Notes: generated by a model not told the origin, from the sequence alone. Positions 7,942 to 64,000 are shown, counted from the first letter of the stretch. The stretch is 64,000 bases of DNA from Patescibacteria group bacterium (GCA_038062675.1 JBBTWP010000003.1:37934-101933), one strand, 5' to 3'. Translations and numbers: made by a program.

Positions 7942-8031
7942 ACAAAACTATTTCAAAATTACACCACAAACCTTTTTCCCCAAGGTCTCACCTCGGGTGT
8001 CCACGAGGACGATCCTTACCATGGGCTATCT

Positions 8032-24784: not shown

Positions 24785-24812
24785 AATGGGCATTCTACCA
24801 TATACTGTAAAG

Positions 24813-36380: not shown

Positions 36381-36522
36381 CGTTTGATTTAACTCAGGCT
36401 ACGAAACAATTTTGAGGCTGGTCATTTTTGTGGGGCTGGGTAAGGTTTGGCAAGCAAAAATGACCACCGAAAAAAATGTTTCGCAATTCAACATTATCCA
36501 ATCATCTAACTTAAAAAACACC

Positions 36523-37053
36523 ATGAACCTTTGGCATGATATTCCTTTAAGCAAAAAAAGTCCTGCAGAAATCAACGTGATTGTTGAGATTAACAAGGGC
36601 TCAAAAAACAAATACGAAATTGACAAAGAAACCGGTCTCATTGCCCTTGACCGCGCAATGCACACTTCCCAAGACTACCCATTTGACTATGGCTTTGTGC
36701 CACAAACACTCTGGGACGACAACGATGCGCTTGATGTTGTACTCCTCACCACGTACCCGCTTTTCCCTGGTATTCTCGTCTCAGCGCGCCCTGTTGCCAT
36801 CATGCACATGACCGACTGTGGCGAAGACGACGACAAAATAATCGCCGTACCGGTCGGCGACCCGCGCTGGGAAGATGTCAAAGATTTAAAAGACATCAAT
36901 AAGCACACCCTCAAAGAAATCGAGCACTTTTTCATGACCTACAAGAAGATTCAGAAGAAAGAAGTGCATGTTTCGGGCTTTGAGGGAATGGTTGCCGCAC
37001 AAGAAGCAGTCACGCGCAGCATAAAACTCTACAACGAAAAATTCGAGAAGTAG
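36523..37053 (+). CDS. ppa: Inorganic pyrophosphatase (family I)
   Basis: 'DYPFDYGFVPQTLWDDNDALDVVLL' and 'DDKIIAV' are PPase active-site motifs. Start at 'MNLWHDIPL'. Confidence 0.85.
   Translation: MNLWHDIPLSKKSPAEINVIVEINKGSKNKYEIDKETGLIALDRAMHTSQDYPFDYGFVPQTLWDDNDALDVVLLTTYPLFPGILVSARPVAIMHMTDCGEDDDKIIAVPVGDPRWEDVKDLKDINKHTLKEIEHFFMTYKKIQKKEVHVSGFEGMVAAQEAVTRSIKLYNEKFEK
37003..37053 (+). repeat. Direct repeat copy 1 (ppa 3' end, ~51 bp)
   Basis: 'gaagcagtcacgcgcagcataaaactctacaacgaaaaattcgagaagtag' is ~46/51 identical to 48236..48287. Confidence 0.8.
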
Positions 37054-37207
37054 GGAAAAACACCCAGTGATTCACTAGCCCTACTAATTTAACCAGTACC
37101 ACACTGGAATAATTCAATCCCGTGACAAGATGGGTGCAGGTGAATCAAAATCCATGCGACAAAACCCACAGAAAATCGAGTTATAAGAAAAAACCTAATA
37201 TTGGATT

Positions 37208-37660
37208 ATGAAAATTAAACTGCTTTCACGGGTGGTAACCTACGACAAAAATCTTGGAAAAATCCTCCTTGTGAAAAACAAGGGGATGAATTTTTGGTAT
37301 GCTCCAGGCGGTGGTTGGGAGTATGAGAGTGAAAATATTTTAGAGTGCGCAAAACGAGAAGTTCATGAGGAAACAGGCTTACATGTGGATATCAAGAAAA
37401 TGCTTTATGTTCAAGAGTTCCATGAATCATCCGAGTCAATTTTCTTCGAAACATTTTGGCTTGCTGAACCTAGCCATGATCAATCGCTGAACCAAAACCA
37501 TGTCGACCTTGACCCAAATGGAAACGTTGAGGCTGCGCAATGGTTTAATAAAGAAGAACTGCAAGAACTTAAAGTGTTCCCCAAGCGACTAAAAAATACT
37601 TTCTGGGATAACATTGCCTCAGTGCTTGATAGCGAAGATTCATTTATCGGGGTGAATTAG
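37208..37660 (+). CDS. NUDIX hydrolase
   Basis: Nudix box 'GGGWEYESENILECAKREVHEETGL' (Gx5Ex7REUxEExGU). Confidence 0.75.
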   Translation: MKIKLLSRVVTYDKNLGKILLVKNKGMNFWYAPGGGWEYESENILECAKREVHEETGLHVDIKKMLYVQEFHESSESIFFETFWLAEPSHDQSLNQNHVDLDPNGNVEAAQWFNKEELQELKVFPKRLKNTFWDNIASVLDSEDSFIGVN

Positions 37661-37680
37661 CGTTGGTCATATTTTTAATG

Positions 37681-37718
37681 AAAAAGCCTTCTTTGCGTTT
37701 TCGCAAGAAGGCTTTTTG
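37681..37718. terminator. Bidirectional terminator between the NUDIX gene and the converging DUF45 gene
   Basis: 'aaaaagccttctttgcg tttt cgcaagaaggcttttt'. Confidence 0.55.
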
Positions 37719-37894
37719 CAACTAAAGTCCGAGCACCTGTAGTATTCTTCTGTGAATCTCAAGGGGTGACTTGGCGCCGTCAATTACGACCCAATTCCTA
37801 GAAGTGGCAATGGCTACATTCAACTCTGAAATGCAATTTCTCTTTTTGGCAATCAAAGAGATGGCGAGACTGTTGCAGGTTGAAGACTTTATAT

Positions 37895-38617
37895 TTACAC
37901 AGCATACATCTCTAGTTTGTCCTTCACTTTTTCCCATTTTGGGTATTTTTCATCCAAAAATTGTAAGAACTTTTTATCATGGTTTTTATATTTTACATGA
38001 CACAATTCATGAGTAATAACGTAATCAATACAATCTTTAGGCACGTGTATTAATTTGGGGTTAAGGATAATCTTATCCTTATTCACAAAGCTCCCCCACC
38101 GACGTTTCATGTCTAGAAGTTCGAGTTTCGGCATATTTTTGTACTCAAAATTCTCCATTACTTCTTCAAATCGCTCTTGGAATACTCGAGTCGCTTTCTC
38201 TTTGTACCACTCAGAAATAAGTTTCTTAGTATGGTTGCTGTCCGACACAGCTCTTGTTGTGCGCACCAACAACACTCCCCTCAAAAGCGAGACCTCCTCC
38301 TCAAGCGCACGCTTCACAACAAGCTGGTGTTGTCGACCTAGGTAATAAAAACTTTCCCCGGAAACATACTCTTTTTTATGCTCTTTCCGCTGATATTTTC
38401 CAAAAAAAGCTAGTTGTTTTTGCATCCAGAACCACTTTTTTTTTAAAAAAATTTCTATACGATCCTCGCTTGCGCGATAAGGACATTTTACGCATATCCG
38501 CAAGTCTGGCATAATCGTAAGGCTCAATGTTTTTCTATTTTGTTTTACGAGATCATAACAATAGACAAAAGAGCCGTATATAAATTCTTTTCTTTCTGAA
38601 CTAGGAAAAGATTTCAT
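37895..38617 (-). CDS. DUF45/YgjP-like M48-family zinc metallopeptidase (R-M-associated)
   Basis: 'YVITHELCHVKYKNH' HExxH motif in a ~240-aa protein. This family is classically located directly downstream of hsdR. Confidence 0.65.
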   Translation of the reverse strand: MKSFPSSERKEFIYGSFVYCYDLVKQNRKTLSLTIMPDLRICVKCPYRASEDRIEIFLKKKWFWMQKQLAFFGKYQRKEHKKEYVSGESFYYLGRQHQLVVKRALEEEVSLLRGVLLVRTTRAVSDSNHTKKLISEWYKEKATRVFQERFEEVMENFEYKNMPKLELLDMKRRWGSFVNKDKIILNPKLIHVPKDCIDYVITHELCHVKYKNHDKKFLQFLDEKYPKWEKVKDKLEMYAV

Positions 38618-41600
38618 AATTATTTTCAGATAATAACATTACATTAGCGATGATTTTTTTCATATCCTCGTCGGAAAGTTCAATGCCTTTTTGTTTTTTC
38701 ACAACATCATACAGGTAATCATCAATTGTATTTATTATTCGCCTTTTAACATCAGCATTTTTATGCCAATCAACGATCGCTTCATGTTTTACAATGTTGA
38801 AAGTATCAATGATAACAGAAACAAAAACTTCTTCCTTTATTTCGAAACCTTTAAAGTTTCCACGAAGATTGCGGTAGAAAATATCAGATCCTTTGTTTTC
38901 TTGAATAAGTACAGGGATGCTATCGTCTTTCTTTTGAACAACATCATCCTTAGCTAACTTCATTTGCCGTAACGCTTCGACGTCCGCGAGTTTCCCGTCG
39001 CGCATTCTCTGCAATATCTCAGAAATTTTCTTTGAAAAACGATCGTAGAACTCAGGGTCAGTATCCATTTTCTCAGTGATTGTTTTTTGGGTTTGTGCAG
39101 CAATTGCCTCAGCTTTAGATTTATCGGACCCAAGGTCTTCAATTGCCTGTTCGAATTGCTTACGGTCAGTGATATTGATTTGCTTGGTTAAAAGCTCCAC
39201 TCCGCGTGCATCAACATATTTATCAAGAATATTTACAAGCGACTGTTTGTACTCAGAGAGATTAACCCGGTCTGCATATTTAAGGCTGGCGGTCTTGCGA
39301 AGTTCCATAAATTTCTTGAGCTCCATCTTATACATATCAAGATGCTTAAACTCATGCACAAAATCCTGAAGCACGAAACATTCATTAAGATTTCTTATAA
39401 ATGAGTTGAGTGACTTATAAAAAATCTCACGCTTTGGGGCATCATTAAGAAGTCGCAAAAATGCTTCGTCATCAGATGACCCCTTGATCTCCTTGAAAAC
39501 ATCGTGCACTAAGCTATAACTCTGTTCGAGTTCCTGCACCTTTTCAGCAACATCAATAAGTGCCCCCTTAACATCACTTTCATCATAATTCCCAAAAAGC
39601 TTCATCGCCATATTGATGTTCTTTGCATTCTCCGAGTAGTCAACAATATACCCCACCGTCTTTGGAAGTTTTTTATTTTCATAAAGACGATTCACCCTCG
39701 CAATTGCTTGGAGTAAATTGTGATCTTTTAAATCTTTGGCAAGATAAAGGACTGTGTTGCGCGGGGCGTCAAAGCCAGTTAAAAGTTTATCGACGACAAT
39801 AATCATCTCAATACCGTCCTCGTTGTGCTTAAAGCTGTCAATAACATCCTTCTCGTACTTCGCGACACTGCTGTGATGTTTGCGAACCCCATCAAGATAC
39901 CCCACAACTTCCTTTTTGTGTGTGTCTTCTTCGTCACCATCATCATGTTCATCAGAAATAACTACAGCAGTACGAACATTCCCTCGAGTTTCAAAAAACT
40001 TTTGAAACAATATGGCTGAGTATTTAGATGGTGCGACAATCTGCGCCTTGAGCCCGGTATTTTGGAAGTATTCAATGAAATGATTCTCAATATCATACGA
40101 AATTTCAATGATTCGTTGTGGATTATTCTTAATAATCTTCGTCCCCGCATATCTCTGCAATTCTTTTTTCTGCTTATCATTCAAATCCTGAGTAATACGC
40201 TCCATGTGCCGATCAATCTGTTCTTCATTTTGCGTCAAATCAACATATCTCCCTTCATAAATAAGTGGCAAAACAATTTTATCTGCAAGTGCATCGTCAA
40301 TCGTGTATGTATCAATATATCCACCGAACTTTCTCCAGCTTTCTTTCTCGCCTTTCATGAGAGGAGTGCCAGTAAAGCCTATGTAGCACGCATTTGGGAT
40401 AATACGATTCATTTCCAGGCTCGCAATACCACCCTGACTGCGGTGTGCCTCATCTATCAAAACAAATATATTTTGATCAGTATCAACAAGCCCTGTTTTC
40501 TTTTTTGCGGCAGACTCAAATTTATGCACAAGAGTAGTTATCACCGCAAGATTTTTTTCTTTAATAAGATCAAGGAGTTCCTGTCCGCTCATGGCCTGCA
40601 CCACCTCTTTTTTCAAATTACAATTCTTAAAGGTGTCTTTAATCTGTTTATCCAAGTCCTTACGATCAGTGACAATGATTACGCGCGGATTACTAATGTG
40701 TGGATTTTCAATAAGCGCCTTAACAAACATCACCATCGTGAGAGATTTACCAGACCCCTGTGTGTGCCAAACGAGCCCGCCGCGACGGCGAGGGGCACCC
40801 CTAACAACCTCTTTTTCTCCAATCCGCTCCATCATCTTATGAATTGCAAAATACTGTTGATAGCGCGACAGTTTTTTCACTCCTGCATCAAAAAGCGTGT
40901 AGTTTTTAACAAGGTCAAGAAGACGAGCAGGTTCAAAAAGCGCAACGATTCCCCTATCCTGCTCTGTCGGAAGTCGTTCAGTTTTTTGTACATGCCCTTC
41001 CGTATATCCGTTGAGATCAGTCAAAATCTGTTCGTAAACAGACCCATCAATCTTCTTCGCGATTAAAGCAATTACTCGCTTGTTTACGTCTTCCTCCGAA
41101 GTCCCTTTTTCCTTCCATCCCGCATAAAATTTATTCAGCGTCCCTGTTGTCCCATACAGTAGTTCTTTACTATTAGTCCCCACAAGAAGCTGTGCGTAAG
41201 TAAAGAGCTTTGGACAAAATTCGGAACCTTGGTTGCGATTCATTTGGTTCAAAGCTTCAACAACATCAACGCTTGATTTCTTGTTCTCAATAATCGCGAA
41301 CGGAATACCGTTCACAAAACACACAACATCGGGACGAATGTTCTGCTTCCCACTAACAGCAAACTCCGCCGTCACATGAAAAGCGTTGCTTTGGGGATTC
41401 TCAAAATCGATAAAACGGAAATTTTTTGACATTGTTTTTCCTCCCGCACTCACTTTAATGGTCTTGCCTCCGCTTGTCGGCATAATGATGTTAAAAATTT
41501 TCTGCGCGGTATCAATAAGCCCCTCGTATTGAATATGTTCGAGCTCATCAATTGCATCGCGCACATCTTTCTCACTAAATTTATATTCTCTCCCGCGAAC

Positions 41601-41783
41601 CTCATACCCATTGATATCCATGAGCTTTTTCTCGGCAATATCAGCAAGAATGAAATTGCTTGTGTCTCCACCACGCTGACGCAACGTCTCTTCAGCAGAA
41701 ATATATTTGTACCCCATTGCCAAAAGAAGCTCCAGTGCCGGAAGTTGAGATTGTTTTGCTTCGTCGAAGTGTACTTTTTCCAT
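38601..41783 (-). CDS. hsdR: Type I restriction enzyme R subunit
   Basis: 1060 aa with an HsdR_N nuclease region ('VVCFVNGIPFAIIENKKSS'). SF2 helicase motifs 'VWHTQGSGKSLTM' (Walker A) and 'VLIDEAHRSQ' (DEAH). Confidence 0.85.
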   Translation of the reverse strand: MEKVHFDEAKQSQLPALELLLAMGYKYISAEETLRQRGGDTSNFILADIAEKKLMDINGYEVRGREYKFSEKDVRDAIDELEHIQYEGLIDTAQKIFNIIMPTSGGKTIKVSAGGKTMSKNFRFIDFENPQSNAFHVTAEFAVSGKQNIRPDVVCFVNGIPFAIIENKKSSVDVVEALNQMNRNQGSEFCPKLFTYAQLLVGTNSKELLYGTTGTLNKFYAGWKEKGTSEEDVNKRVIALIAKKIDGSVYEQILTDLNGYTEGHVQKTERLPTEQDRGIVALFEPARLLDLVKNYTLFDAGVKKLSRYQQYFAIHKMMERIGEKEVVRGAPRRRGGLVWHTQGSGKSLTMVMFVKALIENPHISNPRVIIVTDRKDLDKQIKDTFKNCNLKKEVVQAMSGQELLDLIKEKNLAVITTLVHKFESAAKKKTGLVDTDQNIFVLIDEAHRSQGGIASLEMNRIIPNACYIGFTGTPLMKGEKESWRKFGGYIDTYTIDDALADKIVLPLIYEGRYVDLTQNEEQIDRHMERITQDLNDKQKKELQRYAGTKIIKNNPQRIIEISYDIENHFIEYFQNTGLKAQIVAPSKYSAILFQKFFETRGNVRTAVVISDEHDDGDEEDTHKKEVVGYLDGVRKHHSSVAKYEKDVIDSFKHNEDGIEMIIVVDKLLTGFDAPRNTVLYLAKDLKDHNLLQAIARVNRLYENKKLPKTVGYIVDYSENAKNINMAMKLFGNYDESDVKGALIDVAEKVQELEQSYSLVHDVFKEIKGSSDDEAFLRLLNDAPKREIFYKSLNSFIRNLNECFVLQDFVHEFKHLDMYKMELKKFMELRKTASLKYADRVNLSEYKQSLVNILDKYVDARGVELLTKQINITDRKQFEQAIEDLGSDKSKAEAIAAQTQKTITEKMDTDPEFYDRFSKKISEILQRMRDGKLADVEALRQMKLAKDDVVQKKDDSIPVLIQENKGSDIFYRNLRGNFKGFEIKEEVFVSVIIDTFNIVKHEAIVDWHKNADVKRRIINTIDDYLYDVVKKQKGIELSDEDMKKIIANVMLLSENNYEIFS

Positions 41784-41787
41784 ACAA

Positions 41788-42627
41788 TTATATTAATTTT
41801 TTCTTGCTTGGTGGTAAATAATTATCACCCGTCACGACCTTTTTACCCGTTTTTTCTTCTAATGCCACCCGCGCGTCTTTTGCAATTTTTCCGCCACGCT
41901 TTGCGGGTATCTTATTTTCCTCAAGACCTTTTGCTTCCATATTCTCCGCAATCTGGCGAGTAGAGAGCTCAGCGAGTGCGGTAAAGATGAGTTCAGCTTC
42001 TGACATATGATCACGTAAATTTGTAGACTTGCCCAAACCTTTTACTTTCTTATGATCTTGCACACCCAGATCGCTCCATTCGTGATGAATAATATTTGTA
42101 AGAATTGCATATCCTTTACCTTCTTCTACTCCGGCATCTTTCCAATAATCGGTAAGCTTGTTGCGAGTTTCCTGCCCCATCATTCTCTGCTGTATCCATT
42201 TATCACTTCGTCCGTGCTTCTTCCAATACTCGCGTGAACGATTGAGGGCAAGCTCTGGGTTCATCATTTCATCGATTCGTTCTTGCCCCACCTTTGCAAG
42301 CCATTGTTTAAACGGTTCTGCTTTTGGTGACGGAATAGATTGAATAATACGAAAAATACTCTGTAGATTAGCCACATCGGTAAGATAGCTTTTACCATCA
42401 AGAGACATCAGTTTCAGTTGTCCGATTTTCTCGGACAACTGACTTCCCTCGTCCTTAAGCTTTCTTTTGAGATCATCCCAGTATTTTCTAGGCCTTTCAC
42501 TTCCTGACAGGACTGCAACAACATCAATCACAGAAAAATACCACTGCTCGTGATGCCATGTTCTACGGACATCTTTTTCTTCAAAAATCGCTGGCGTAAT
42601 ATTCCTTTTTGTTTGTGGTTTTTTCAT
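41788..42627 (-). CDS. DinD / Bro-N-domain family protein (DNA-damage-inducible protein D-like)
   Basis: 'FEEKDVRRTWHHEQWYFSVIDVVAVLSGSERPRKYW...' plus C-terminal '...LRDHMSEAELIFTALAELSTRQ' parallel E. coli DinD ('FEEIRHY...EFWSARELAPLLGY' and 'DHMGSTELAANLFRATQ'). Start set at 'MKKPQTKRNIT' (42627) to avoid overlap with hsdS. Confidence 0.5.
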   Translation of the reverse strand: MKKPQTKRNITPAIFEEKDVRRTWHHEQWYFSVIDVVAVLSGSERPRKYWDDLKRKLKDEGSQLSEKIGQLKLMSLDGKSYLTDVANLQSIFRIIQSIPSPKAEPFKQWLAKVGQERIDEMMNPELALNRSREYWKKHGRSDKWIQQRMMGQETRNKLTDYWKDAGVEEGKGYAILTNIIHHEWSDLGVQDHKKVKGLGKSTNLRDHMSEAELIFTALAELSTRQIAENMEAKGLEENKIPAKRGGKIAKDARVALEEKTGKKVVTGDNYLPPSKKKLI

Positions 42628-42631
42628 AAAG

Positions 42632-43864
42632 TTATTTGTTAATTGATAATGTTTCAGGGGTTCTAATGGTGCCAGTGATGAGATTGTTGAGGAGGTACTT
42701 TTTCTGGTCCTTGAGGAGGGAGAGTTTATTTTCGAGTTTGGAGATTTCATTGTCTGCGGTAGTGAGGATGGTGGCAACTGCGGTTTGTTCCTCTTTTGAC
42801 GTTGGGATTACTATTTCAATTTCTGATAAATCAGTGCAATTTATCGCTGGGTAGTTTGAACCCGTGCACCTATCTATAACTTTATTAACAAATTCATCTG
42901 TATGTAATAAATAATATAAATAACGAGCAGAACCTTTTGCCCTGATTTGCGCATAGCCAGTCGATGCAACATAATCTCCTTTTTTATCAAAAAATAAATT
43001 ATTCTTCTGATAGGGCCTGACCACCTGAAAAATAATGTCTTCGTGCCTCAAAAGCCTCTGGGCTCGGCTAGGAGCTCCGGTTAAATTTATTATATTTTCT
43101 TTTAAAAGATTGCCGCGCTCAACACTTTCAAGGTCAATATATACAAAAGTATTCGGCAAGCTTTCACTTTTAGGATTCATTTCGCAAGCATCACCCAATC
43201 GAATACTCTCCCACTTATCCTTAAGCCAACCCAATCGCTTTTTCCCAGTAAGCAAATCCTGCATCAAACCTTTTTTGATTTCCTTTTTGATTTCAATTTT
43301 CTTCCTCAATTTTTCAATCGCCTTATCCCAAGCCTCCAGCACCGCCACAATCCGATTTTGTTCAGGCGTTGAAGGGAGTTTAATATTTACATGATTAAGT
43401 GAAGTGCCGCTAGTTAACGCTCTTGTTGTATATGAGCTTTTTTCTATTATTTCTTTACGTGCTAAATGAGTTTTGAAGTAATACTTAGAGTAACCAAGAG
43501 TCAGTGACTTTCCTTTTGGTCTTGCACGAAGAACAAAACCGCTAAAAACTGTGTCTTTGAAATCATCAAGTGCTACCGCGGAGAATCCTATTTCTTTAAG
43601 AGTTTCGGAAGTTCTAGTAAAGAACACATCTCCTTTTTTTACATTAAACCTATCGAGCTCGGATTTATTCACGTCAACTCTACCTAGAATAGTATTTGTG
43701 TATAAACCTCCACCTTTATAAACATCCGTATAATTAATTATTGGAGTACCGTGACCAAAGTAGTGTTTCTCTTTATTTAGTCCATTTTTAAATTCAAAAA
43801 TACTCGCAAGTTTTAATTCTTGCCACCCTTCAGGAATATTTTTTTGTAGTTGATTATTTTTCAT
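42632..43864 (-). CDS. hsdS: Type I restriction-modification specificity subunit (two TRDs)
   Basis: 410 aa; N-terminus 'IPEGWQELKLASIFEFKNG' and two TRD plus conserved-repeat units typical of HsdS. Confidence 0.8.
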   Translation of the reverse strand: MKNNQLQKNIPEGWQELKLASIFEFKNGLNKEKHYFGHGTPIINYTDVYKGGGLYTNTILGRVDVNKSELDRFNVKKGDVFFTRTSETLKEIGFSAVALDDFKDTVFSGFVLRARPKGKSLTLGYSKYYFKTHLARKEIIEKSSYTTRALTSGTSLNHVNIKLPSTPEQNRIVAVLEAWDKAIEKLRKKIEIKKEIKKGLMQDLLTGKKRLGWLKDKWESIRLGDACEMNPKSESLPNTFVYIDLESVERGNLLKENIINLTGAPSRAQRLLRHEDIIFQVVRPYQKNNLFFDKKGDYVASTGYAQIRAKGSARYLYYLLHTDEFVNKVIDRCTGSNYPAINCTDLSEIEIVIPTSKEEQTAVATILTTADNEISKLENKLSLLKDQKKYLLNNLITGTIRTPETLSINK

Positions 43865-44468
43865 GTTTTAGTCTCAATCTTTCTGGCAGAAACCAGTCAA
43901 TCTCTTCATCCGACAAAGTAAATTCTTCTCCTTGGACCTCTCCTCTTTTATTTAGTCTTTTCTGTGCTTCGGTATATTCTTTGGGTCCAGTTTGTGGAGC
44001 AAGATCACTGATGACCTGGTACTCTCTTTGCAACAAGTCTCTTCGAGAGATAATTTGGTCCGTGGGGACTGATTCACTCATAACATCTGCAATTAATGAA
44101 CGATAAGCATCTCTAAGTCCCATATACTTAAGAGCTGAGTTTTTATGCATAACTACTCGTTGTTCAAAGCTGAATGTAAGCTGGATGATAAGAAAAATTA
44201 CTTCAGCAACAGTAATCCCAGCACCTATATATGAAAACAAAAGAACTTCTGGCTTAGTAGCTTGGATGATCAATAAAATTAAAACAATAGAAACTAATAC
44301 AATGTTTACTATCTTAATAGTGAATACATTTTTTTCTTGATTTTCTGCAGCAACTTCTTGTACTTTGTGAGTAAAGACTGTACTTGCAAATGATTGTCTA
44401 ATGATTGAAAGATTTTCTTTGTTCATATATTTAAAATTTAGATCCATAAATTTCTCTCCACTTGCCAT
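43854..44468 (-). CDS. SLATT-like 2TM effector protein
   Basis: ~200 aa with exactly two adjacent TM helices ('FTIKIVNIVLVSIVLILLII', 'LLFSYIGAGITVAEVIFLIIQLTF') after a short N-terminal region. Polar C-terminal tail. Sits directly downstream of, and overlapping, the SMODS-like NTase. Start may be an internal ATG (44447 or 44426). Confidence 0.5.
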   Translation of the reverse strand: MASGEKFMDLNFKYMNKENLSIIRQSFASTVFTHKVQEVAAENQEKNVFTIKIVNIVLVSIVLILLIIQATKPEVLLFSYIGAGITVAEVIFLIIQLTFSFEQRVVMHKNSALKYMGLRDAYRSLIADVMSESVPTDQIISRRDLLQREYQVISDLAPQTGPKEYTEAQKRLNKRGEVQGEEFTLSDEEIDWFLPERLRLKHEK

Positions 44469-45321
44469 TAGCTGAGGAAGGCATTTCTCTCACCTCGTAA
44501 TCTATTGCCTCATTTGCAATATTAAAACCACGCAGTGCTTTGAATTGAAAATCTCCTTTCTTGTAAACATATTGACCACTACCTACTGCAAGCCAGTATG
44601 TTTTATCTTTGTCTTGGTTTTTAAGATATTCAAAAAAATCACGAGTCATCCAATCATAATAAAGATAAGAGTCATTTCTCTGAGCCCATGTTTTCAAGAA
44701 CTGGTATGCAAGAGTATCTATCAGTAAACCTCCCATTGGAACATCCCACTTATCTTTCCACGCTCTTGCCATTCTACATAAGTTCTTTAAATTTCCATTG
44801 AGTGTTTCGTTTGTTTTTCGAACCTCTTCAATTTCTGGTTTTGGGTTTGTTGTTTTCCAACTACCGCCATTATTTGAATCAGGATAAGTATAACTTCCAT
44901 TGTCATTCATGAAACAAGGAACAATTTCAAAACTGACACCATCTTCAAATTTAATTGCGACAATTTGTCCATCACCACTTATATGAGTTGTTGAGTAAGT
45001 ATTTTTTAATGAGTCTCTAACTTCCGAAAGCAGGGCAGATTGACCATTCCCTGAATGCTTATTGATTCTTTCATATACGGAATATGGGAGTTGAAATAAA
45101 ACATCAATATCACTAACATGGATATCAGTGTCTCTACCGTAAGATCCGACATACAGACTGTGAGCCGTATTTGATTCTGTGCTCCAAAAATCTTTATTCA
45201 ATTGTTTTGTGATTCTTTTATAGCGATACGAAATATCACCAGCAACACTTGAAGTGATACGGATGCTTGAACAAAAATTTTGGAATTTAGTTGATACACT
45301 CATAATCTTATTTTGAATCAC
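44431..45321 (-). CDS. SMODS / CD-NTase-like nucleotidyltransferase (pol-beta fold)
   Basis: 'LYVGSYGRDTDIHVSDIDVLF' is the [GS]-x(9-13)-DhD nucleotidyltransferase motif. A further acidic 'FEIVPC' strand lies downstream. ~296 aa. Confidence 0.6.
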   Translation of the reverse strand: MIQNKIMSVSTKFQNFCSSIRITSSVAGDISYRYKRITKQLNKDFWSTESNTAHSLYVGSYGRDTDIHVSDIDVLFQLPYSVYERINKHSGNGQSALLSEVRDSLKNTYSTTHISGDGQIVAIKFEDGVSFEIVPCFMNDNGSYTYPDSNNGGSWKTTNPKPEIEEVRKTNETLNGNLKNLCRMARAWKDKWDVPMGGLLIDTLAYQFLKTWAQRNDSYLYYDWMTRDFFEYLKNQDKDKTYWLAVGSGQYVYKKGDFQFKALRGFNIANEAIDYEVREMPSSANGKWREIYGSKF

Positions 45322-46006
45322 GCTTTTCTACCGCATCCTTTGCGCCACCAGGAAGACCATCATAAAAGGAATCTATTTCTTTCAACTCTGTTATCATCTT
45401 TTCAGCAATAAAATTGATGAGGCTGAATAACTTTATTACTCGATCCGTATCCTCGGTCAGATCTAACTCACCTGGGTGGACAGCGTTGTTCCCTGCGATA
45501 CGGAGTGCATCGAGAGATTTCTGAATAGCAGGATTCAATCCCTTCTTTACCAATGAAGCAATATCATCATTTATATTTTGTCCCTTTTCCCCAAGTTGAA
45601 CGCAGAGTTTCTGGAGAGCGAGACGCAAAATAGCAGCCGCTGAGCGAGGCGAATCACTAAGCACATTTGCTGCTTCTAAATAGTCATTCTGAATATCCTC
45701 GTTGAGATCGTTGTTCGGTTGAGCAACTTGAATTGTTCTCGGATAGACAATTGATGTTGCCAACCAGATGACATTACGACCACAATGCTCGCACTTTGAT
45801 ACAGACCATTCTTCATTAAAGTTTCCACTAAATGTGGTCATTCCGTAGATGTTTGACTGACGATTTACACCATACTGATTTCTCTCCGTATAAATATCAT
45901 CCACAGCGCTCAGGTGTGACCATCGCTGTTTTGCATAGACACCACAACGCGGACAGTGGAATTGCCCTTTTGCGTGTATTGGTGGAAAATGTTGTTCTTT
46001 GTTCAT
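45308..46006 (-). CDS. Zn-ribbon plus DUF4145 domain protein (R-M/Abi-associated)
   Basis: N-terminal 'CPRCG...CEHCG' zinc ribbon. C-terminal 'SAAAILRLALQKL...LRIAGNNAVHPGE' matches the DUF4145 helical module commonly appended to or beside type I R-M genes. Confidence 0.55.
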   Translation of the reverse strand: MNKEQHFPPIHAKGQFHCPRCGVYAKQRWSHLSAVDDIYTERNQYGVNRQSNIYGMTTFSGNFNEEWSVSKCEHCGRNVIWLATSIVYPRTIQVAQPNNDLNEDIQNDYLEAANVLSDSPRSAAAILRLALQKLCVQLGEKGQNINDDIASLVKKGLNPAIQKSLDALRIAGNNAVHPGELDLTEDTDRVIKLFSLINFIAEKMITELKEIDSFYDGLPGGAKDAVEKRDSK

Positions 46007-46010
46007 ATAT

Positions 46011-47525
46011 TTATTTAATCCCTAATTCCTTTAAATATTCGACCATTTGTTTTTCGAGTTTCTGAAGCTCGGGTTCGAGAGCTGCAAGCTCCTTTAGATT
46101 TGCTTGAATATCAACAGGAGCTTCCTCCTCGAAAGTATCCACATAGCGAGTGATGTTGAGGTTAAAATCGTTTTCTTCAATTTCTTTGAAATCTACTTTG
46201 CGTGAAAACTTTTCAACATCTTTACGCTTTTTGTAGGTGTCAAAAATCTTGGCAATATTTTCTTCAGTGAGGGTGTTCTTTGCCTTGCCAGATTTGAACT
46301 CTTTTGATGCTTCAATAAAAAGCACGTCCTTTTTCTTCTCGTTCGCACCGCCCTTTTCACGCGAGCGATCAATCACGAGGATAGCGACAGGAATACCTGT
46401 CGTCTGAAAGAGTCCCGCAGGTAGTCCAATCACTGTGTCAATAATATTCTCTTTAAGAAGCTGTGTGCGGATTTTCCCTTCTGAACCACCGCGGAAAAGC
46501 ACGCCGTGCGGTACAATCACCGCGACCCTGCCCGTCTTTGGTTTTGCGGTTTCAATCATGTGCGTAATAAAAGCAAAATCCCCTTTATCCTTTGGCGGAA
46601 CTCCGCGCCAAAAGCGATTGTACTTATCAGCCTCGGCATTTTCTGCACCCCACTTTTTCAAGGAAAATGGAGGGTTCGCCACGATTGTGTCGAAGTGCAT
46701 GAGCTGGTCATTTTCTACCAACCGCGGACTGTTAAGAGTGTCTCCCCATTCAATACGTGCGGAGTCCTTGCCGTGGAGAAACATATTCATACGAGCAAGC
46801 TGAAATGTTGAGCCTGTGGACTCTTGCCCGTAGAGTGCGTAGTTTTTTGAGCCCTGCTTTTCTACTTCTTCCCCAGCGAGGAGAAGGAGGTTCGCCGACC
46901 CGCAACACGGATCACAAATACGATCCCCTTCTTTAGGCTCAGCAAGTTTTGCAACCAATCGCGCAACACTCGTCACCGTGAAGAACTCTCCAGCTTTTTT
47001 ACCAGCATCCGAACCAAACTTTTCAATCATGTACATGTACGCATTTCCAATGACATCATCGCCAACATCCGAGAGGTCTATTTTGGCAAAGTCATTGATG
47101 AGGTGGCGAAGCATCTTGTTGCGTTGCTCAAGTTTCCCAAGTATTGATTCGGAGTTGAAGTCAACACTGAATACCCCTTCAAGCTTTTCTTTGTTCGCAT
47201 CTTCAATACGATGGAGCGCTTTGTTTATTTCCTCACCAATATTGTCTTCTTCAACTTTGCCATATAGATAGTCAAACGATGACTTTGGAGGAAGGTAAAA
47301 GCGGTCGAGCTTCATCTTTTCCTCAATACGCTTTTCGTCATCACCAAAACGCTCTTTGTATTCAGCATGTCTCTTTTTATTTAAATCGCTGAGATACTTC
47401 ATGAAAAGCATCGTCAACGCATAGTCTTTGTAGACACCACCATCCACACTACTACGAGAAGAATCAGCCGCTGCCCAGAGCGTCTTGTTGAGTTCTTCTT
47501 GTGTGTATTTTTTTTGAGTAGGCAT
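46011..47525 (-). CDS. hsdM: Type I restriction-modification N6-adenine DNA methyltransferase subunit
   Basis: Motif I 'DPCCGSANLLL' and motif IV 'IVANPPF'. N-terminal HsdM_N region. Confidence 0.85.
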   Translation of the reverse strand: MPTQKKYTQEELNKTLWAAADSSRSSVDGGVYKDYALTMLFMKYLSDLNKKRHAEYKERFGDDEKRIEEKMKLDRFYLPPKSSFDYLYGKVEEDNIGEEINKALHRIEDANKEKLEGVFSVDFNSESILGKLEQRNKMLRHLINDFAKIDLSDVGDDVIGNAYMYMIEKFGSDAGKKAGEFFTVTSVARLVAKLAEPKEGDRICDPCCGSANLLLLAGEEVEKQGSKNYALYGQESTGSTFQLARMNMFLHGKDSARIEWGDTLNSPRLVENDQLMHFDTIVANPPFSLKKWGAENAEADKYNRFWRGVPPKDKGDFAFITHMIETAKPKTGRVAVIVPHGVLFRGGSEGKIRTQLLKENIIDTVIGLPAGLFQTTGIPVAILVIDRSREKGGANEKKKDVLFIEASKEFKSGKAKNTLTEENIAKIFDTYKKRKDVEKFSRKVDFKEIEENDFNLNITRYVDTFEEEAPVDIQANLKELAALEPELQKLEKQMVEYLKELGIK

Positions 47526-47529
47526 GGAT

Positions 47530-48117
47530 TTATTTGGTGGTTAAATTTTTAAAAGTTGCGCTGATAATGTTTTTTTTGAGGTAGCTTTTTCGCTCAAGTA
47601 TCTCTTCTTGCCTTTTGATATTTTCGTGTAATGCGATGATTGATTTTTGTTTTATCATTGGCGGTATTGGGATATCTATGTCCTCTAAATTCTTTCGGAG
47701 GATACTTTGTATATATGACCCGCCCGTGACAACCTGTGAAATCTTTTTTTGCCCATCATCTGAGTTCAGATACAAAGAAATGTATTTGGGTAATACGGTC
47801 ACATCTTTGATGCGGATAATGTGTACTGATGACGAAGCGATAACATTCGTTTCGTCGAGCGCAAAAACAGTTGCACGAAAAGAGCCCAATCCTGAACCCC
47901 TAGAAACAAGGAGTACGTCGTTGTATTCCAAATATGACATAGCTCGAGGGGGTTCCGAAGAAATCCGAGCGAACTCGCCGGTCTCTGTAATATCCCGCGC
48001 ACTATCCACATTCGTTGCTTGCAGTACGAAAACCTTGCCGTTTGGGTCCTTTTCGACAGGACTGCGGAAAGTGTACCCCGAAATGACCTGAGCGATATCC
48101 TGTACTTTCTTTTGCAT
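47530..48117 (-). CDS. Half-size HsdS-like specificity protein (single TRD)
   Basis: 195 aa; 'IAQVISGYTF' TRD start and the conserved HsdS central/C-terminal helix 'IIALHENIKRQEEILERK'. First gene of the operon. Confidence 0.55.
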   Translation of the reverse strand: MQKKVQDIAQVISGYTFRSPVEKDPNGKVFVLQATNVDSARDITETGEFARISSEPPRAMSYLEYNDVLLVSRGSGLGSFRATVFALDETNVIASSSVHIIRIKDVTVLPKYISLYLNSDDGQKKISQVVTGGSYIQSILRKNLEDIDIPIPPMIKQKSIIALHENIKRQEEILERKSYLKKNIISATFKNLTTK

Positions 48118-48235
48118 GTAGAGAGTATACTGTGTTTTATGTAAAATTGCAACAAGCTGGCGACTTTGAGCAACAAAAAGGGCGAGTGTGTCAATTTTTT
48201 TCTATAGCTCAAGTGTATAAAGTATTCTGTGATTA

Positions 48236-48287
48236 GAAGCCGTCACCCGCAGCATAAAACTCTACAACGAAAAGTTTGGGAAGTAAA
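48236..48287 (+). repeat. Direct repeat copy 2 (orphan remnant of ppa 3' end)
   Basis: 'gaagccgtcacccgcagcataaaactctacaacgaaaagtttgggaagtaa' would encode 'AVTRSIKLYNEKFGK*', against the ppa C-terminus 'AVTRSIKLYNEKFEK*'. Confidence 0.8.
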
Positions 48288-48504
48288 TATTTTTCAAAAT
48301 AGCAAAAAAATACTTAAAACAAAGGGTAAATGGCGCCAAGGATTCGATCCTTGGCGCCATTTATTATTACACCACACCAACCCCCTGTACTCCCAACCTC
48401 ATTGCGATATACTCAATTAAGAGCCTGTCTCGACAGGCTCTTAATTGCAAAAGGCATCATTATGTTTCTTTTGCTACATAACACATTCTAGAATAATAAA
48501 TCTT

Positions 48505-49260
48505 ATGAAAAAAATTATCATCTCAGGTATTGCAGTCGGTATTATGGCAACGTCGTCAGTTGTTTTTGCAACCACTACGGTTGCGACGTCGACTGCAACA
48601 ACCACACCACAAGCGAACACGTGGAAAGATACGCGTGACGAACAAAAAGATTTCCGCAAGGATCTCAAAAACGAAAAGAAGGAACTCCAAAAGGATTTCC
48701 GTAAGGAAGACAAGGAAATGAAGAGGGACGACCGCGAAGACAGAAAAGAACTTCGAGGAGTACTCAAAGAGGAGCGGAAGGAGGCCCGTGAGGGTAAGCG
48801 CTTCCGCACCGCAACAACTACAAGCACGTCTACTGCACAAAGACGAAATGACGCCAATGAGCGAATGGAGGAACGCCGCAAAAAGGCTGGCATTATGCGA
48901 GCAGAATACCTTGTGAAACGCCTCGAGCGCAATGTCGCAATGCTTGAAAACTATGCAGTGAGAATTGAAACGAGACTCGCCACACTCTTTGGGAAGGGTT
49001 TTGACGTCACCAAGGCGCGCACAAACCTTGCCCTTGCACGCACCAAGATTGCTGATGCAAAGAATAAAGTTGCTATCGTAAAGACAGGTGTCACAGCAGC
49101 CACAACAGCACCGAATGTTAACGAGGCACTCAAAGCACTTAAGCCGAAAATAAAAGCTGCTGAGAATGCGACAAAAGACGCACAGCACGCACTCAAAAGC
49201 GCAATGAATCTTCGCTTTGCAGGAATTGCAACTTCAACCGCAACCACGACAGCTCAATAG
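48505..49260 (+). CDS. Secreted Lys/Arg/Glu-rich coiled-coil protein, hypothetical
   Basis: Signal peptide 'MKKIIISGIAVGIMATSSVVFA'. Thr-rich linker then charged repeats 'KDFRKDLKNEKKELQKDFRKEDKEMKRDDREDRKELR'. Confidence 0.5.
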   Translation: MKKIIISGIAVGIMATSSVVFATTTVATSTATTTPQANTWKDTRDEQKDFRKDLKNEKKELQKDFRKEDKEMKRDDREDRKELRGVLKEERKEAREGKRFRTATTTSTSTAQRRNDANERMEERRKKAGIMRAEYLVKRLERNVAMLENYAVRIETRLATLFGKGFDVTKARTNLALARTKIADAKNKVAIVKTGVTAATTAPNVNEALKALKPKIKAAENATKDAQHALKSAMNLRFAGIATSTATTTAQ

Positions 49261-63479: not shown

Positions 63480-63513
63480 GTCGGGGCGCCGAGAATCGAA
63501 CTCGGTCTATCTA
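63480..63513 (-). repeat. Duplicated 3' half of tRNA-Pro (T-arm plus acceptor), att-like fragment
   Basis: 'gtcggggcgccgagaatcgaactcggtctatct' is identical to 63568..63600, as is the preceding 'agcttta'. A further fragment of the tRNA 5' end ('tactacgccccgac') recurs at 63686..63699. Confidence 0.7.
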
Positions 63514-63569
63514 AATTTCTTATTGAAATTTCCACGGAAGTGTTTAGACACTTCCGGTTAAAGCTTTAG

Positions 63570-63640
63570 TCGGGGCGCCGAGAATCGAACTCGGTCTATC
63601 TGCTCCCAAAGCAGACGTACTACCGGTATACTACGCCCCG
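63570..63640 (-). tRNA. tRNA-Pro (anticodon TGG)
   Basis: Hand-folded: C1-G72 acceptor (CGGGGCG/CGCCCCG, typical of bacterial tRNA-Pro), anticodon arm TCTGC-TTTGGGA-GCAGA, T-arm CCGAG-TTCGATT-CTCGG, discriminator A. Confidence 0.75.
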
Positions 63641-64000
63641 ACTAAAGCTTCAACCCCACGCAGATGTACCACCACAGCATACTACGCCCCGACATAAATT
63701 TCGACAAACCAACAACACCCCCCCCACTCACATTACTCAAACAACGTTTCATGCGAAACAATAAAAGAATAGTAGCACAACGAATGATTTTTACAAAATA
63801 AGGTTTTCAAGAAACTTTACTCGTGCCCGCCTTGTAGTTATGTTGATTTGCACGGTTATGGCGTGGAATTCCCAAATAGGCTCATTCAGGGGAAACTTTT
63901 CCAATAAATACGCTTGAATTGTTCGTGCTAGCCGTTTAAGCTTTTGTGGGTGAATATTGTCCTCTGGACGATGATCATCCGTTACACGGGAAACATTTTC

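What the first reader, a model, noticed from the sequence alone, without database searches (positions are those of the whole stretch)
37003..48287. 11-kb AT-rich defence island inserted after ppa and bounded by direct repeats of the ppa 3' end
The last ~51 bp of ppa (37003..37053) recur, about 90% identical, at 48236..48287, where they would encode '...KLYNEKFGK*' with no gene body attached. Everything between the two copies is accessory and visibly lower in GC than the flanking nusA/ppa/tig genes. The cargo comprises a NUDIX hydrolase, a DUF45 metallopeptidase, hsdR, a DinD/Bro-N-like protein, hsdS, SLATT, SMODS, DUF4145, hsdM and a half-hsdS. This is the footprint of site-specific integration into a gene 3' end, as with tRNA/tmRNA-targeting elements, but here the target is a protein-coding gene. 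No integrase remains, so the island looks domesticated or decayed.
Basis: seen in the sequence. Interest (0 to 1): 0.7.

Follow-up and report, generated by a model that had tools for sequence, protein, structure and literature searches.

The report
Integrase-less defence island at ppa end
An 11.2-kb block of foreign anti-phage genes has been spliced into the last 51 bases of the pyrophosphatase gene of an uncultured groundwater bacterium; it supplied a replacement gene end and left the original end stranded downstream, which is a clear but ordinary kind of genomic island in a little-studied lineage.

Summary
The last 51 nt of ppa (37002-37052) recur at 48235-48285 with 46/51 identity. This is the only such pair in the window, and about 5e-16 would be expected by chance.

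The 11.2 kb between the copies has 39.6% GC against 45.9% elsewhere. It holds a NUDIX gene and one intact minus-strand operon. That operon is a Type I R-M system (half-hsdS, hsdM, hsdS, hsdR, YgjP peptidase) with embedded PD-T7-4, a CBASS cyclase with a SLATT effector, and a Bro-N/PDC-S13 gene.

Two congeners (L092, L093) have the empty site, which equals window[..37001] joined to window[48235..]. None of 80 related species carries island genes or a ppa-end duplicate.

All four close ppa variants end ...EKFGK like the orphan. So the orphan is the native end and the present ppa end (FEK) came with the element. Four of the five coding differences are synonymous (P=0.005).

No recombinase or remnant lies in the island or anywhere in the 64 kb. 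Relatives of the same R-M backbone carry other embedded defence genes, and two sit beside a large serine recombinase next to a tRNA gene.

Verdict: a real, att-flanked, integrase-less (CIME-like) defence island. It is a new member of a known kind, and the recombinase is unidentified.

The parts
36523..37053 (+). ppa (family I inorganic pyrophosphatase, 176 aa). It is a chimeric gene: native body, with at least its last ~11 nt (TTC GAG AAG TAG) supplied by the island.
   Evidence: Pfam PF00719 in the gene table. It is 84% identical in aa to Yonathbacteria ppa. The C-terminus FEK is unique among close relatives, which all end FGK.
37002..37052 (+). Left direct repeat (attL-like), which is the present 3' end of ppa.
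   Evidence: 46/51 identity with 48235-48285. Sites 37043 and 37045 differ from all three congeners.
37054..37180 (.). Left arm of the island, unique sequence. It has no homologue in the loci fetched and no coding remnant.
   Evidence: Homology to NUDIX-bearing contigs starts only at 37181. Six-frame pieces have no Pfam hit. No terminal inverted repeat with the right arm.
37208..37660 (+). NUDIX hydrolase (150 aa), a passenger gene on the ppa strand. It now lies 154 nt downstream of the ppa stop and is followed by a hairpin at 37681-37716.
   Evidence: PF00293, E=2e-14. Homologues of 60-86% identity are widespread and sit elsewhere, next to an HSP70-like gene rather than ppa. The homologous module spans 37181-37811.
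37895..38617 (-). YgjP-like (DUF45) metallopeptidase, the last gene of the R-M operon.
   Evidence: PF01863, E=3e-52. It is conserved after hsdR in all backbone relatives L095-L100.
38601..41783 (-). hsdR, Type I restriction subunit (1060 aa).
   Evidence: HSDR_N, SWI2_SNF2 and T1R_D3 domains. TIGR00348 at 487 bits. 80-83% identical in aa to L095-L098 and L100.
41788..42627 (-). Bro-N domain protein (PADLOC PDC-S13), embedded between hsdS and hsdR. None of the backbone relatives has it there.
   Evidence: PF02498, E=4e-10. PDC-S13, E=5e-119. In L095, L096 and L098 hsdS abuts hsdR.
42632..43864 (-). hsdS, a full-length specificity subunit with two target-recognition domains.
   Evidence: PF01420 twice. 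Only the conserved C-terminal ~120 nt match the relatives; the TRDs are 30-32% identical in aa.
43854..44468 (-). SLATT_4 two-transmembrane effector of the CBASS pair.
   Evidence: PF18186, E=7e-31. PADLOC 2TM effector, E=4e-38.
44431..45321 (-). SMODS / CD-NTase (CBASS oligonucleotide cyclase).
   Evidence: PF18144, E=1e-51. PADLOC cyclase, E=3e-137 over 291/293 profile positions.
45308..46006 (-). DUF4145 protein (PD-T7-4), the first gene in the hsdM-hsdS slot.
   Evidence: PF13643, E=2e-16. PADLOC PD-T7-4, E=6e-81.
46011..47525 (-). hsdM, Type I methyltransferase.
   Evidence: N6_Mtase, E=7e-101. TIGR00497 at 276 bits. 85-90% identical in aa to L096-L098 and L100, and 74% over the partial L099.
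47530..48117 (-). Half-hsdS (single TRD, 195 aa), the first gene of the operon.
   Evidence: PF01420, E=2e-8. Present at the same place in L096-L098 and L100 (47-51% aa).
48118..48234 (.). Right arm of the island, unique sequence. It holds a promoter-like site (48152-48124, minus strand) for the R-M operon.
   Evidence: No coding remnant. In L096 and L097 a large serine recombinase gene occupies the equivalent position.
48235..48286 (+). Right direct repeat (attR-like). This is the orphaned native 3' end of ppa, with 16 codons plus TAA.
   Evidence: It encodes ...EKFGK* like all close relatives. It is 48/51 identical to the L093 ppa end, and BLAST reports a 47-nt match at 98% to the L086 ppa end. 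The downstream alignment of empty-site loci starts exactly here.
48327..48363 (.). 17-bp-stem palindrome, the presumed native ppa terminator, now stranded behind the orphan.
   Evidence: It is conserved as a palindrome downstream of ppa in L092 and L093.
48505..49260 (+). Lys/Arg-rich protein with no family match, the native right-hand neighbour of ppa.
   Evidence: No Pfam hit. It is syntenic after ppa in L001, L004, L005, L007 and L009, and a homologous region follows ppa in L092 and L093.

Best explanation
A circular foreign element of about 11.2 kb carried a 51-nt imitation of the 3' end of a ppa gene. It recombined once with the chromosomal ppa of a Yonathbacteria-like (Parcubacteria/CPR) groundwater bacterium, in a Campbell-type integration.

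The crossover fell inside the shared 51 nt, somewhere between 37002 and 37042. As a result ppa kept its body but now ends in element-borne codons (...EKFEK*). The native end (...EKFGK*), its terminator and the downstream KR-protein/tig genes were pushed 11.2 kb away.

These steps are shown: the insertion itself, its polarity, and the foreign origin of the present gene end.

These steps are inferred. The event was probably catalysed by a site-specific integrase that recognises the ppa 3' end. A tyrosine recombinase is the most likely type, because an att segment running from the crossover to the stop codon and restoring the gene is their hallmark. That integrase is not encoded in the island, so it was either lost afterwards or acted in trans. 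What remains is an att-flanked, recombinase-less island, comparable to a cis-mobilizable element (CIME).

The payload is one intact operon with its own promoter-like site. It is a Type I R-M system into which three further anti-phage modules are embedded: PD-T7-4, a two-gene CBASS (cyclase plus SLATT pore-type effector), and a Bro-N/PDC-S13 gene. The likely result is layered restriction plus abortive-infection immunity. A NUDIX hydrolase travels as a passenger.
For: - The repeat is real, unique in the window and far beyond chance.
- Empty sites exist in congeners L092 and L093. Their ppa aligns to 36497-37052 (86.5-88% nt). The block starting at their last 51 ppa bases aligns to 48235/6-49328 (76-79%), so the 51 nt are shared by both alignments.
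- In 80 species-level relatives nusA-ppa-(KR)-tig is conserved, with no island gene and no ppa-end duplicate.
- The orphan is native-like. P0001, P0243, P0244 and P0245 (96-98% aa) all end FGK. At the six differing sites, L093 and L086 each match the orphan at five, and L092 matches it at the three 3'-most. TTC GAG is unique to the window.
- Four of the five sense-codon differences are synonymous (P=0.005 under random substitution). So each copy evolved as the coding end of a working ppa gene, not as a decaying duplicate.
- The island has foreign composition.
- Both junctions are reproduced in independent assemblies.
- The same R-M backbone (hsdR 80-83% aa, hsdM 85-90% aa) occurs in four other genomic contexts. 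In two of them a large serine recombinase sits at its end next to a tRNA gene, so the backbone does move on integrative elements.
- No transposon features: no terminal inverted repeats and no transposase.
- There is precedent for integrase-less att-flanked elements in the 3' ends of housekeeping protein genes (PMC7563491).
Against: - No integrase, excisionase or remnant lies in the island or in the 64-kb window. The catalytic step is therefore unsupported by any gene.
- No second ppa-targeting element was found in 80 species, in viral contigs, or near relatives of the cargo. So there is no evidence that ppa is a recurrent att site.
- The only recombinases seen with related backbones are large serine recombinases. 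These normally leave repeats of a few bases, not 51 nt.
- The 26-nt perfect core (37015-37040) is about the minimum length for RecA-dependent recombination, so a homologous crossover cannot be excluded.
- No same-species genome with an empty site, and no circular form, was available to show current mobility.
Confidence: 0.65

Rival explanations
1. Homologous (RecA-dependent) Campbell integration. A circular DNA that happened to carry a ppa 3' fragment, for instance an imprecisely excised or circularised piece from a related donor taken up by natural transformation, recombined with the resident ppa through the 26-nt identical core. No dedicated integrase was ever involved.
For: - The footprint is identical to that of site-specific integration.
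- No integrase is found anywhere.
- A 26-nt perfect core lies inside a 51-nt 90% match.
- The host encodes ComEC, RecJ and type IV pilus genes in the same window, so DNA uptake is plausible.
- The mimic is as similar to congeneric ppa genes as those genes are to each other, as expected if it came from a sister lineage's chromosome.
Against: - The homology ends exactly at the stop codon and begins abruptly 51 nt upstream. That is expected of an evolved gene-restoring att site, but would be a coincidence for a random chromosomal fragment.
- Neither arm (37054-37180, 48118-48234) resembles any ppa neighbourhood in 80+ relatives.
- NUDIX relatives never follow ppa in the five contexts examined.
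- 51 nt at 90% identity is a very poor RecA substrate.
Confidence: 0.2
2. Large-serine-recombinase element. The island arrived as an LSR-borne element like its relatives L096 and L097, with the LSR gene next to half-hsdS. That gene was later deleted between half-hsdS and the orphan ppa end.
For: L096 and L097 carry an LSR (Resolvase + Recombinase + Zn_ribbon_recom domains, 80% identical to each other) directly beside half-hsdS of the same backbone. A tRNA gene lies just outside it. In the window, only 118 nt of unique sequence occupy that position.
Against: - LSR attL and attR normally share only the 2-nt crossover plus a few bases, not a 51-nt gene-restoring repeat (established knowledge of phiC31/Bxb1-type enzymes).
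- No LSR remnant is found by tblastn (best E=0.24).
- L096 and L097 show no long repeat of their neighbouring tRNA.
- The orientation of the orphan relative to half-hsdS differs from that of the tRNA in L096 and L097.
Confidence: 0.08
3. Not an insertion at all. Either an in-situ partial duplication of the ppa end with later filling-in, an ancestral locus that all relatives lost, or an assembly chimera.
For: Recombination between the direct repeats would delete the island cleanly, so absence in relatives does not formally prove gain.
Against: - The excess of synonymous differences (P=0.005) argues against a decaying duplicate.
- The orphan rather than the in-gene copy matches relatives.
- 83 loci lack any island gene.
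- Island GC is 6 points below the genome, with cargo GC3 down to 0.25.
- The junctions are identical in independent assemblies of several samples.
Confidence: 0.03

Closest known systems
Cis-mobilizable elements (CIMEs) and ICE/IME islands in the 3' ends of housekeeping protein genes (fda, rpsI, rpmG, rplL) of streptococci (PMC7563491)
   Same: It is inserted in the 3' end of an essential protein-coding gene whose reading frame is preserved. It is flanked by direct repeats that contain the gene end. It has no integrase, relaxase or conjugation genes. Its size (11.2 kb) lies within the 1.2-13 kb range reported for classical CIMEs. It carries adaptive cargo.
   Different: The target gene (ppa) and the host phylum (CPR/Patescibacteria) differ. 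No partner ICE or IME lies in tandem or anywhere in the window. Derivation from an ICE or IME is unproven. CPR bacteria are not known to conjugate, so the transfer route is unknown, with transformation as one possibility.
tRNA/tmRNA-targeting genomic islands with tyrosine integrases
   Same: The att segment runs from the crossover point to the end of the target gene and restores it. The displaced native end stays as an orphan at the far junction. The element has deviant composition.
   Different: The target is an mRNA-coding sequence, so the mimic has to preserve codons: four of the five sense-codon differences are synonymous. The integrase gene usually found next to the target is absent.
Type I R-M operons with embedded defence genes (PrrC in EcoprrI, PMC12707154; TgvAB in V. 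cholerae VPI-2, PMC11411939; 'guilt-by-embedding', bioRxiv 10.1101/2024.01.29.577857)
   Same: Extra anti-phage genes sit between hsdM, hsdS and hsdR inside one operon. The slot content is swapped between otherwise conserved backbones. The window has PD-T7-4 plus CBASS, L098 has a Shedu-like gene, L096 has a DUF3800 gene, and L097 has an AAA_15/21 ATPase.
   Different: This backbone holds three embedded modules in two slots, including a complete two-gene CBASS. It also has a leading half-hsdS and a trailing YgjP peptidase. None of the modules has been tested functionally.
SCCmec at the 3' end of rlmH (orfX) (own knowledge)
   Same: It is an island inserted in the last codons of a housekeeping gene with the frame preserved, and it is bounded by direct repeats.
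   Different: SCCmec repeats are about 15-18 bp, and the element carries its own Ccr serine recombinases. Here the repeat is 51 nt and there is no recombinase.

Membership tests
Site-specifically integrated genomic island | Present or absent relative to an otherwise collinear empty site in relatives | tested here: met
   L092 and L093 have ppa followed directly by the sequence that starts at 48235. 80 species lack all island genes.
Site-specifically integrated genomic island | Flanking direct repeats that duplicate the target (att core plus gene end) | tested here: met
   51 nt, 46/51 identical, ending at the stop codon and unique in the window.
Site-specifically integrated genomic island | Encodes its own integrase or recombinase | tested here: not met
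   No recombinase domain in any island gene or any large ORF of the window. No remnant in the intergenic pieces. tblastn with related LSRs was negative.
Site-specifically integrated genomic island | Composition deviating from the host | tested here: met
   GC 0.396 against 0.459. GC3 0.25-0.45 against 0.46-0.56.
Site-specifically integrated genomic island | Excision to a circular form, or a same-species empty attB | not testable with these tools
   This needs read-level data. Every contig with the exact ppa or tig protein carries the island.
CIME (cis-mobilizable element) | Retains both att sites but has no recombination, mobilization or conjugation genes | tested here: met
CIME (cis-mobilizable element) | Derived by deletion from an ICE or IME, or found in tandem with one that can mobilise it | tested here: inconclusive
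   No ICE or IME lies in the 64-kb window. Related backbones with LSRs exist elsewhere, but descent is not shown. The rest of the genome was not available.
Type I restriction-modification system | hsdR, hsdM and hsdS genes, full length, in one operon | tested here: met
   TIGR00348 at 487 bits, TIGR00497 at 276 bits, and Methylase_S twice. All genes are on the minus strand with overlaps or gaps of a few bases.
CBASS (type I, minimal two-gene) | CD-NTase/SMODS cyclase adjacent to an effector, without Cap2/Cap3 or other ancillary genes | tested here: met
   PADLOC cyclase E=3e-137. 2TM effector E=4e-38. The two genes overlap by 38 nt. Enzymatic activity was not tested.
PD-T7-4 | Match to the family profile over its whole length | tested here: met
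   PADLOC PDLC04109, E=6e-81, profile positions 3-208 of 211.
Transposon / insertion sequence | Transposase, terminal inverted repeats, and a short identical target-site duplication | tested here: not met
   No transposase. The arms show no significant inverted match (41 of 500 shuffles score as high). The repeat is 51 nt and imperfect.
Large-serine-recombinase islands (as in L096 and L097) | LSR gene at the element end | tested here: not met
   Absent from the window, although the cargo backbone is homologous.

The most novel reading that the evidence does not exclude
Yonathbacteria-like CPR bacteria host a family of integrative elements whose integrase, encoded elsewhere in the genome or on a partner element, specifically targets the last 51 nt of ppa and can mobilise integrase-less defence islands in trans. 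On this reading the conserved half-hsdS-hsdM-[slot]-hsdS-hsdR-YgjP backbone is a portable cassette carrier. It swaps embedded immune modules and also swaps integration modules: LSR plus tRNA in some hosts, a ppa mimic here. This would be the first defined att system and mobile defence island in this phylum of ultra-small, largely CRISPR-less bacteria.
Probability: 0.2. Interest if true: 0.5.

Novelty: new member of a known kind. Interest (0 to 1): 0.35.

Why it matters
CPR/Patescibacteria have tiny genomes, and I found no paper in the held library describing defined genomic islands or att sites for them.

This locus gives a base-precise example of recent gene gain in such a genome. It has an identifiable attB in congeners from the same aquifer and a reconstructible attP. 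It shows that these bacteria can acquire multilayered immunity (Type I R-M, CBASS, PD-T7-4 and PDC-S13) as a single block.

It also adds natural examples of cassette exchange inside a Type I R-M backbone, which supports the 'guilt-by-embedding' approach. The ORFs of unknown function in the same slot of relatives (L098 8282-8749, L096 4124-4477) become candidate defence genes.

The general phenomena are well known: islands in the 3' ends of housekeeping genes, integrase-less att-flanked elements, and embedded defence genes. A specialist would not be surprised.

Tried and rejected
- **Second ppa-end duplicate in 80 related genomes:** none. The best local scores were at noise level.
- **Recurrent hotspot between ppa and tig:** no. 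The only large gap (L079, 6 kb) holds an ABC-F ATPase, a TfoX-like gene and an Ig-domain surface protein, not a defence island.
- **L086 as a second island at the same site:** L086 has the closest ppa protein (98% aa) but different downstream genes. Its post-ppa sequence shows no significant similarity to the island's left arm, so it is not evidence for another island.
- **ppa-NUDIX as a natural neighbourhood in a donor genome:** five contexts of the closest NUDIX homologues show no such arrangement, and there is no ppa-like C-terminal motif near them.
- **Degenerate ppa-end pattern in viral contigs:** 0 hits.
- **SMODS in viral contigs:** one hit at 55% identity (L094), with no link to this island.
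- **Integrase remnants:** tblastn with LSRs and an IS30 transposase from related islands, and Pfam on all stop-free pieces of at least 20 aa in the three intergenic gaps, were all negative.
- **Rfam on the island:** nothing below E=0.3.
- **Terminal inverted or direct repeats in the arms:** not significant.
- **Plasmid origin:** hsdM is at most 60% identical to any PLSDB plasmid.
- **Literature on ppa as an att target:** nothing relevant.
- **Which half of the repeat is element-derived:** this could only be narrowed down. The three left-hand variable sites are polymorphic among congeners (L092 carries the attL states), so the crossover may lie anywhere from 37002 to 37042.

Full report
**1. 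The observation**

The last 51 nt of the ppa gene (37002-37052; the gene is 36523-37053, plus strand) recur at 48235-48285. The match is 46/51 with no gaps. A repeat search over the whole window finds this pair and no third copy. About 5e-16 matches of this quality would be expected by chance in 64 kb.

In frame, the downstream copy reads EAVTRSIKLYNEKFGK followed by TAA (48284-48286). The gene itself ends EAVTRSIKLYNEKFEK followed by TAG. Upstream of 48235 there is no similarity to ppa, so the copy is an orphan gene end.

**2. What lies between the copies**

Positions 37054-48234 have 39.6% GC, against 45.9% for the rest of the window. Third-position GC falls to 0.25 in the CBASS genes, against 0.46-0.56 in ppa, the KR-rich gene and tig.

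A NUDIX hydrolase lies on the plus strand at 37208-37660. The rest is one tightly packed minus-strand operon running from 48117 to 37895, in this order:
- half-hsdS
- hsdM
- DUF4145 (PADLOC PD-T7-4, E=6e-81)
- SMODS cyclase (E=3e-137)
- SLATT_4 two-transmembrane effector
- full-length hsdS
- a Bro-N protein (PDC-S13, E=5e-119)
- hsdR
- a YgjP/DUF45 metallopeptidase

All profile matches are full length, so the cargo is intact. A promoter-like site for the operon lies in the 118-nt right arm (48152-48124, minus strand).

**3. The host and the empty site**

A scan of species-representative genomes with the ppa protein places the window in the Parcubacteria, closest to Candidatus Yonathbacteria (84% aa). 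Exact-protein look-ups show that it comes from groundwater well H41 of the Hainich observatory. Both island junctions are present base-for-base in independent assemblies of several samples, which excludes a chimera.

Across 80 related species the gene order T2SS-ATPase / nusA / ppa / (KR-rich protein) / tig / clpP / RNase Y is conserved. None of the ten island genes has a homologue within 10 kb of ppa. None of those loci has a second copy of its own ppa end.

The 90% protein cluster of ppa contains four close variants (96-98% aa). Two of them could be traced to contigs that extend downstream: L092 from Hainich well H32, and L093. In both, ppa aligns to window 36497-37052 (86.5-88% nt). The sequence beginning with the last 51 nt of their ppa aligns to window 48235/6-49328 (76-79% nt), including the long palindromic terminator and the KR-rich gene. 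The empty site is therefore exactly window[..37001] joined to window[48235..].

**4. Which copy is native**

All four close ppa variants end ...KLYNEKFGK, like the orphan. Only the window's gene ends FEK.

At the six nucleotide positions where the two copies differ:
- L093 carries the orphan state at five and a third base at the sixth.
- L086 carries the orphan state at five.
- L092 carries the orphan state at the three 3'-most positions and the in-gene state at the three 5'-most.

The states TTC and GAG at 37041-37046 occur in no congener. The 45 nt after the orphan's stop codon are almost identical to those after the L093 stop codon.

So the orphan plus everything downstream is the native ppa end. 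At least the last ~11 nt of the present ppa came with the element. The crossover lies somewhere between 37002 and 37042; the left-hand sites are polymorphic among congeners and cannot place it more precisely.

Four of the five differences in sense codons are synonymous. Only 0.5% of random five-substitution sets reach that. Both copies therefore evolved as the coding end of a working ppa gene. The element carried a gene-restoring imitation of the target, as integrative elements that land in the 3' ends of genes do.

**5. The mobility machinery is missing**

None of the island genes has a recombinase domain. The only non-coding stretches (37054-37207, 37661-37894, 48118-48234) contain no recognisable coding remnant and no Rfam family. 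The two arms share no terminal inverted or direct repeat above shuffled controls.

The rest of the window is housekeeping, with no integrase or transposase. It encodes ribosomal proteins, EF-Tu and EF-G, ComEC, RecJ, RNase H, PGK, TIM, type IV pilus genes, NusA, Tig, ClpP, RNase Y and a two-component system.

**6. Relatives of the cargo**

A metagenome scan with HsdR found six loci carrying the same backbone: half-hsdS, hsdM, a slot, hsdS, hsdR and YgjP. HsdR is 80-83% identical and HsdM 85-90% identical in five of the six loci; the sixth, L099, is more distant at 61% and 74%.

The conserved parts stop at the hsdM stop codon and resume in the last ~120 nt of hsdS. Between them the content differs:
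- the window has PD-T7-4 plus CBASS
- L098 and L100 have a Shedu-like SduA_C protein plus an unknown 155-aa ORF
- L096 has a DUF3800 protein plus an unknown ORF
- L097 has a 603-aa AAA_15/AAA_21 ATPase

The Bro-N/PDC-S13 gene between hsdS and hsdR is present only in the window. This is the pattern of defence genes embedded in Type I R-M operons. It is known from PrrC (PMC12707154) and TgvAB (PMC11411939), and was generalised as 'guilt by embedding' (bioRxiv 10.1101/2024.01.29.577857).

In L096 and L097 a large serine recombinase sits directly beside half-hsdS, with a tRNA gene (Arg-CCT and Val-CAC respectively) just outside it. The two recombinases are 80% identical to each other. L096 has a second such recombinase beyond the YgjP gene. 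L098 instead has RadC on one side and an IS30-like transposase on the other.

The backbone thus travels on different integration modules. In the window the position of the recombinase is occupied by 118 nt of unique sequence followed by the orphan ppa end, and tblastn finds no trace of such a recombinase.

**7. The NUDIX gene**

Homologues at 60-86% identity are numerous in Patescibacteria-like contigs. In the five contexts examined they lie in NUDIX-rich neighbourhoods next to an HSP70-like gene. They never lie downstream of ppa in the window's arrangement.

Nucleotide homology to these contigs covers 37181-37811 only. So the 127 nt between the ppa stop and this module are element-specific. 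This argues against the left end being a slab of donor chromosome in which ppa and NUDIX were natural neighbours.

After the insertion no terminator-like site lies between ppa and NUDIX on the plus strand, so the two may be co-transcribed. This is inference.

**8. Mechanism**

Shown:
- a foreign 11.2-kb segment was inserted by a single reciprocal exchange within the last 51 nt of ppa
- the element supplied the new gene end
- the native end, terminator and downstream genes were displaced

Inferred: the exchange was catalysed by a site-specific integrase that is no longer, or never was, encoded in the island. I put this at about 0.55-0.65. A tyrosine recombinase is the most likely type. The reason is that an att segment which begins at the crossover, runs to the stop codon and conserves the coding sense is the signature of such systems at tRNA genes and at fda, rpsI, rpmG and rplL in streptococci. 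Integrase-less att-flanked derivatives (CIMEs) are common there (PMC7563491).

The main rival is a RecA-dependent single crossover through the 26-nt identical core, at about 0.2. It leaves the same scar and cannot be excluded from sequence alone. An LSR-mediated event followed by loss of the LSR gene is less likely (about 0.08), because LSR products share only a few bases. In-situ duplication, ancestral presence or an artefact are contradicted by the results in sections 3 and 4.

Inferred from family annotations only, with no function tested here: the operon gives layered immunity. The Type I enzyme restricts unmethylated DNA with two specificities, from the full and the half HsdS. The CBASS cyclase signals to a membrane effector for abortive infection. 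PD-T7-4 and PDC-S13 add further defence activities whose mechanisms were not examined here.

**9. Comparison, novelty and score**

The island meets the tests for an inserted island: an empty site, target-duplicating repeats and deviant composition. It meets the descriptive definition of a CIME, with att sites and no recombination genes. It fails the test of encoding its own integrase. Its descent from an ICE or IME, and its mobility, could not be tested.

I found no paper in the held library naming ppa as an integration target, or describing att-bounded islands in CPR bacteria. No second ppa-targeting element turned up in 80 species, in viral contigs or near cargo relatives.

This is a new member of a known kind. 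It is well documented and useful as an entry point to mobile elements and immunity in CPR bacteria, but not surprising in principle. Interest: 0.35.

Noticed in passing
window 63480-63705 (minus strand): An intact tRNA-Pro(UGG) (63569-63640) is bracketed by fragments of a tRNA-Pro. A 5'-half-like piece reaching the anticodon loop (anticodon GGG) lies at about 63655-63705. A perfect 33-nt copy of the 3' half (T arm plus acceptor) lies at 63480-63512, 56 nt beyond the intact gene. It looks like a gene-less att scar (a 'microCIME') or a broken tandem tRNA array, and it hints that integrases have acted in this genome. ARAGORN, even with introns allowed, calls only the one tRNA.
   Followed up: partly
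L096 230-1669 and 11997-13427; L097 2962-4485: Large serine recombinases lie directly beside the half-hsdS of a Type I R-M backbone homologous to the window's. A tRNA gene lies just outside (tRNA-Arg CCT at L096 40-112; tRNA-Val CAC at L097 2741-2813). L096 has a second LSR at the other end, 48% identical to the first. The element boundaries and att sites were not determined.
   Followed up: partly
L098 7188-8749; L096 4124-5571; L097 6568-8379: The hsdM-hsdS slot of the same backbone holds different genes in each relative: a Shedu-like SduA_C protein plus a 155-aa ORF with no Pfam match (L098), a 117-aa ORF with no match plus a DUF3800 protein (L096), and an AAA_15/AAA_21 ATPase (L097). The unmatched ORFs are candidate defence genes by embedding.
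   Followed up: partly
window 8032-12623 (minus strand): Two very large ORFs (1037 and 447 aa) have no Pfam match. They are built from diverged ~240-nt periodic repeats (repeat families D1, D3 and D4). They are probably a repetitive surface protein pair.
   Followed up: no
window 6891-7041 and 7792-7942: Two 151-nt direct repeats (95% identical) each contain a perfect 29-32-nt palindrome (terminator-like). They bracket about 750 nt of sequence between the S7/M50-peptidase genes and the giant repeat protein.
   Followed up: no
window 44408-44433 and 45988-46013: A 26-nt motif (88% identical; reverse complement TAAATATATGAACAAAG...) recurs at the starts of the SLATT and DUF4145 genes, that is, at two gene junctions of the embedded cassettes. 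It may be a shared translational-coupling signal or a cassette boundary.
   Followed up: no
L090 3183-3941; L091 5544-5888: In contigs carrying the closest NUDIX homologues, a pyrophosphatase-NUDIX fusion gene (252 aa) or a short pyrophosphatase ORF (114 aa) lies next to a cluster of several NUDIX genes. This suggests a functional link between NUDIX hydrolases and PPase in these organisms.
   Followed up: no
window 24735-25631: One ORF as listed joins a HIT-family domain (residues 38-132) and a PemK/MazF-like toxin domain (195-295). These are probably two adjacent genes, one of them a type II toxin, in an otherwise housekeeping region.
   Followed up: no
L084 and L085 (window 35039/35594-37359): Two Logan contigs from different runs both stop at window position 37359, inside the NUDIX gene. 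The likely cause is k-mers shared with NUDIX paralogues of other community members rather than structural variation.
   Followed up: no
L094 10001-11435 (IMGVR_UViG_3300021604_000016): A viral contig carries a SMODS cyclase (55% aa) followed by a SLATT effector (30% aa) in the same order as the window's CBASS pair.
   Followed up: no
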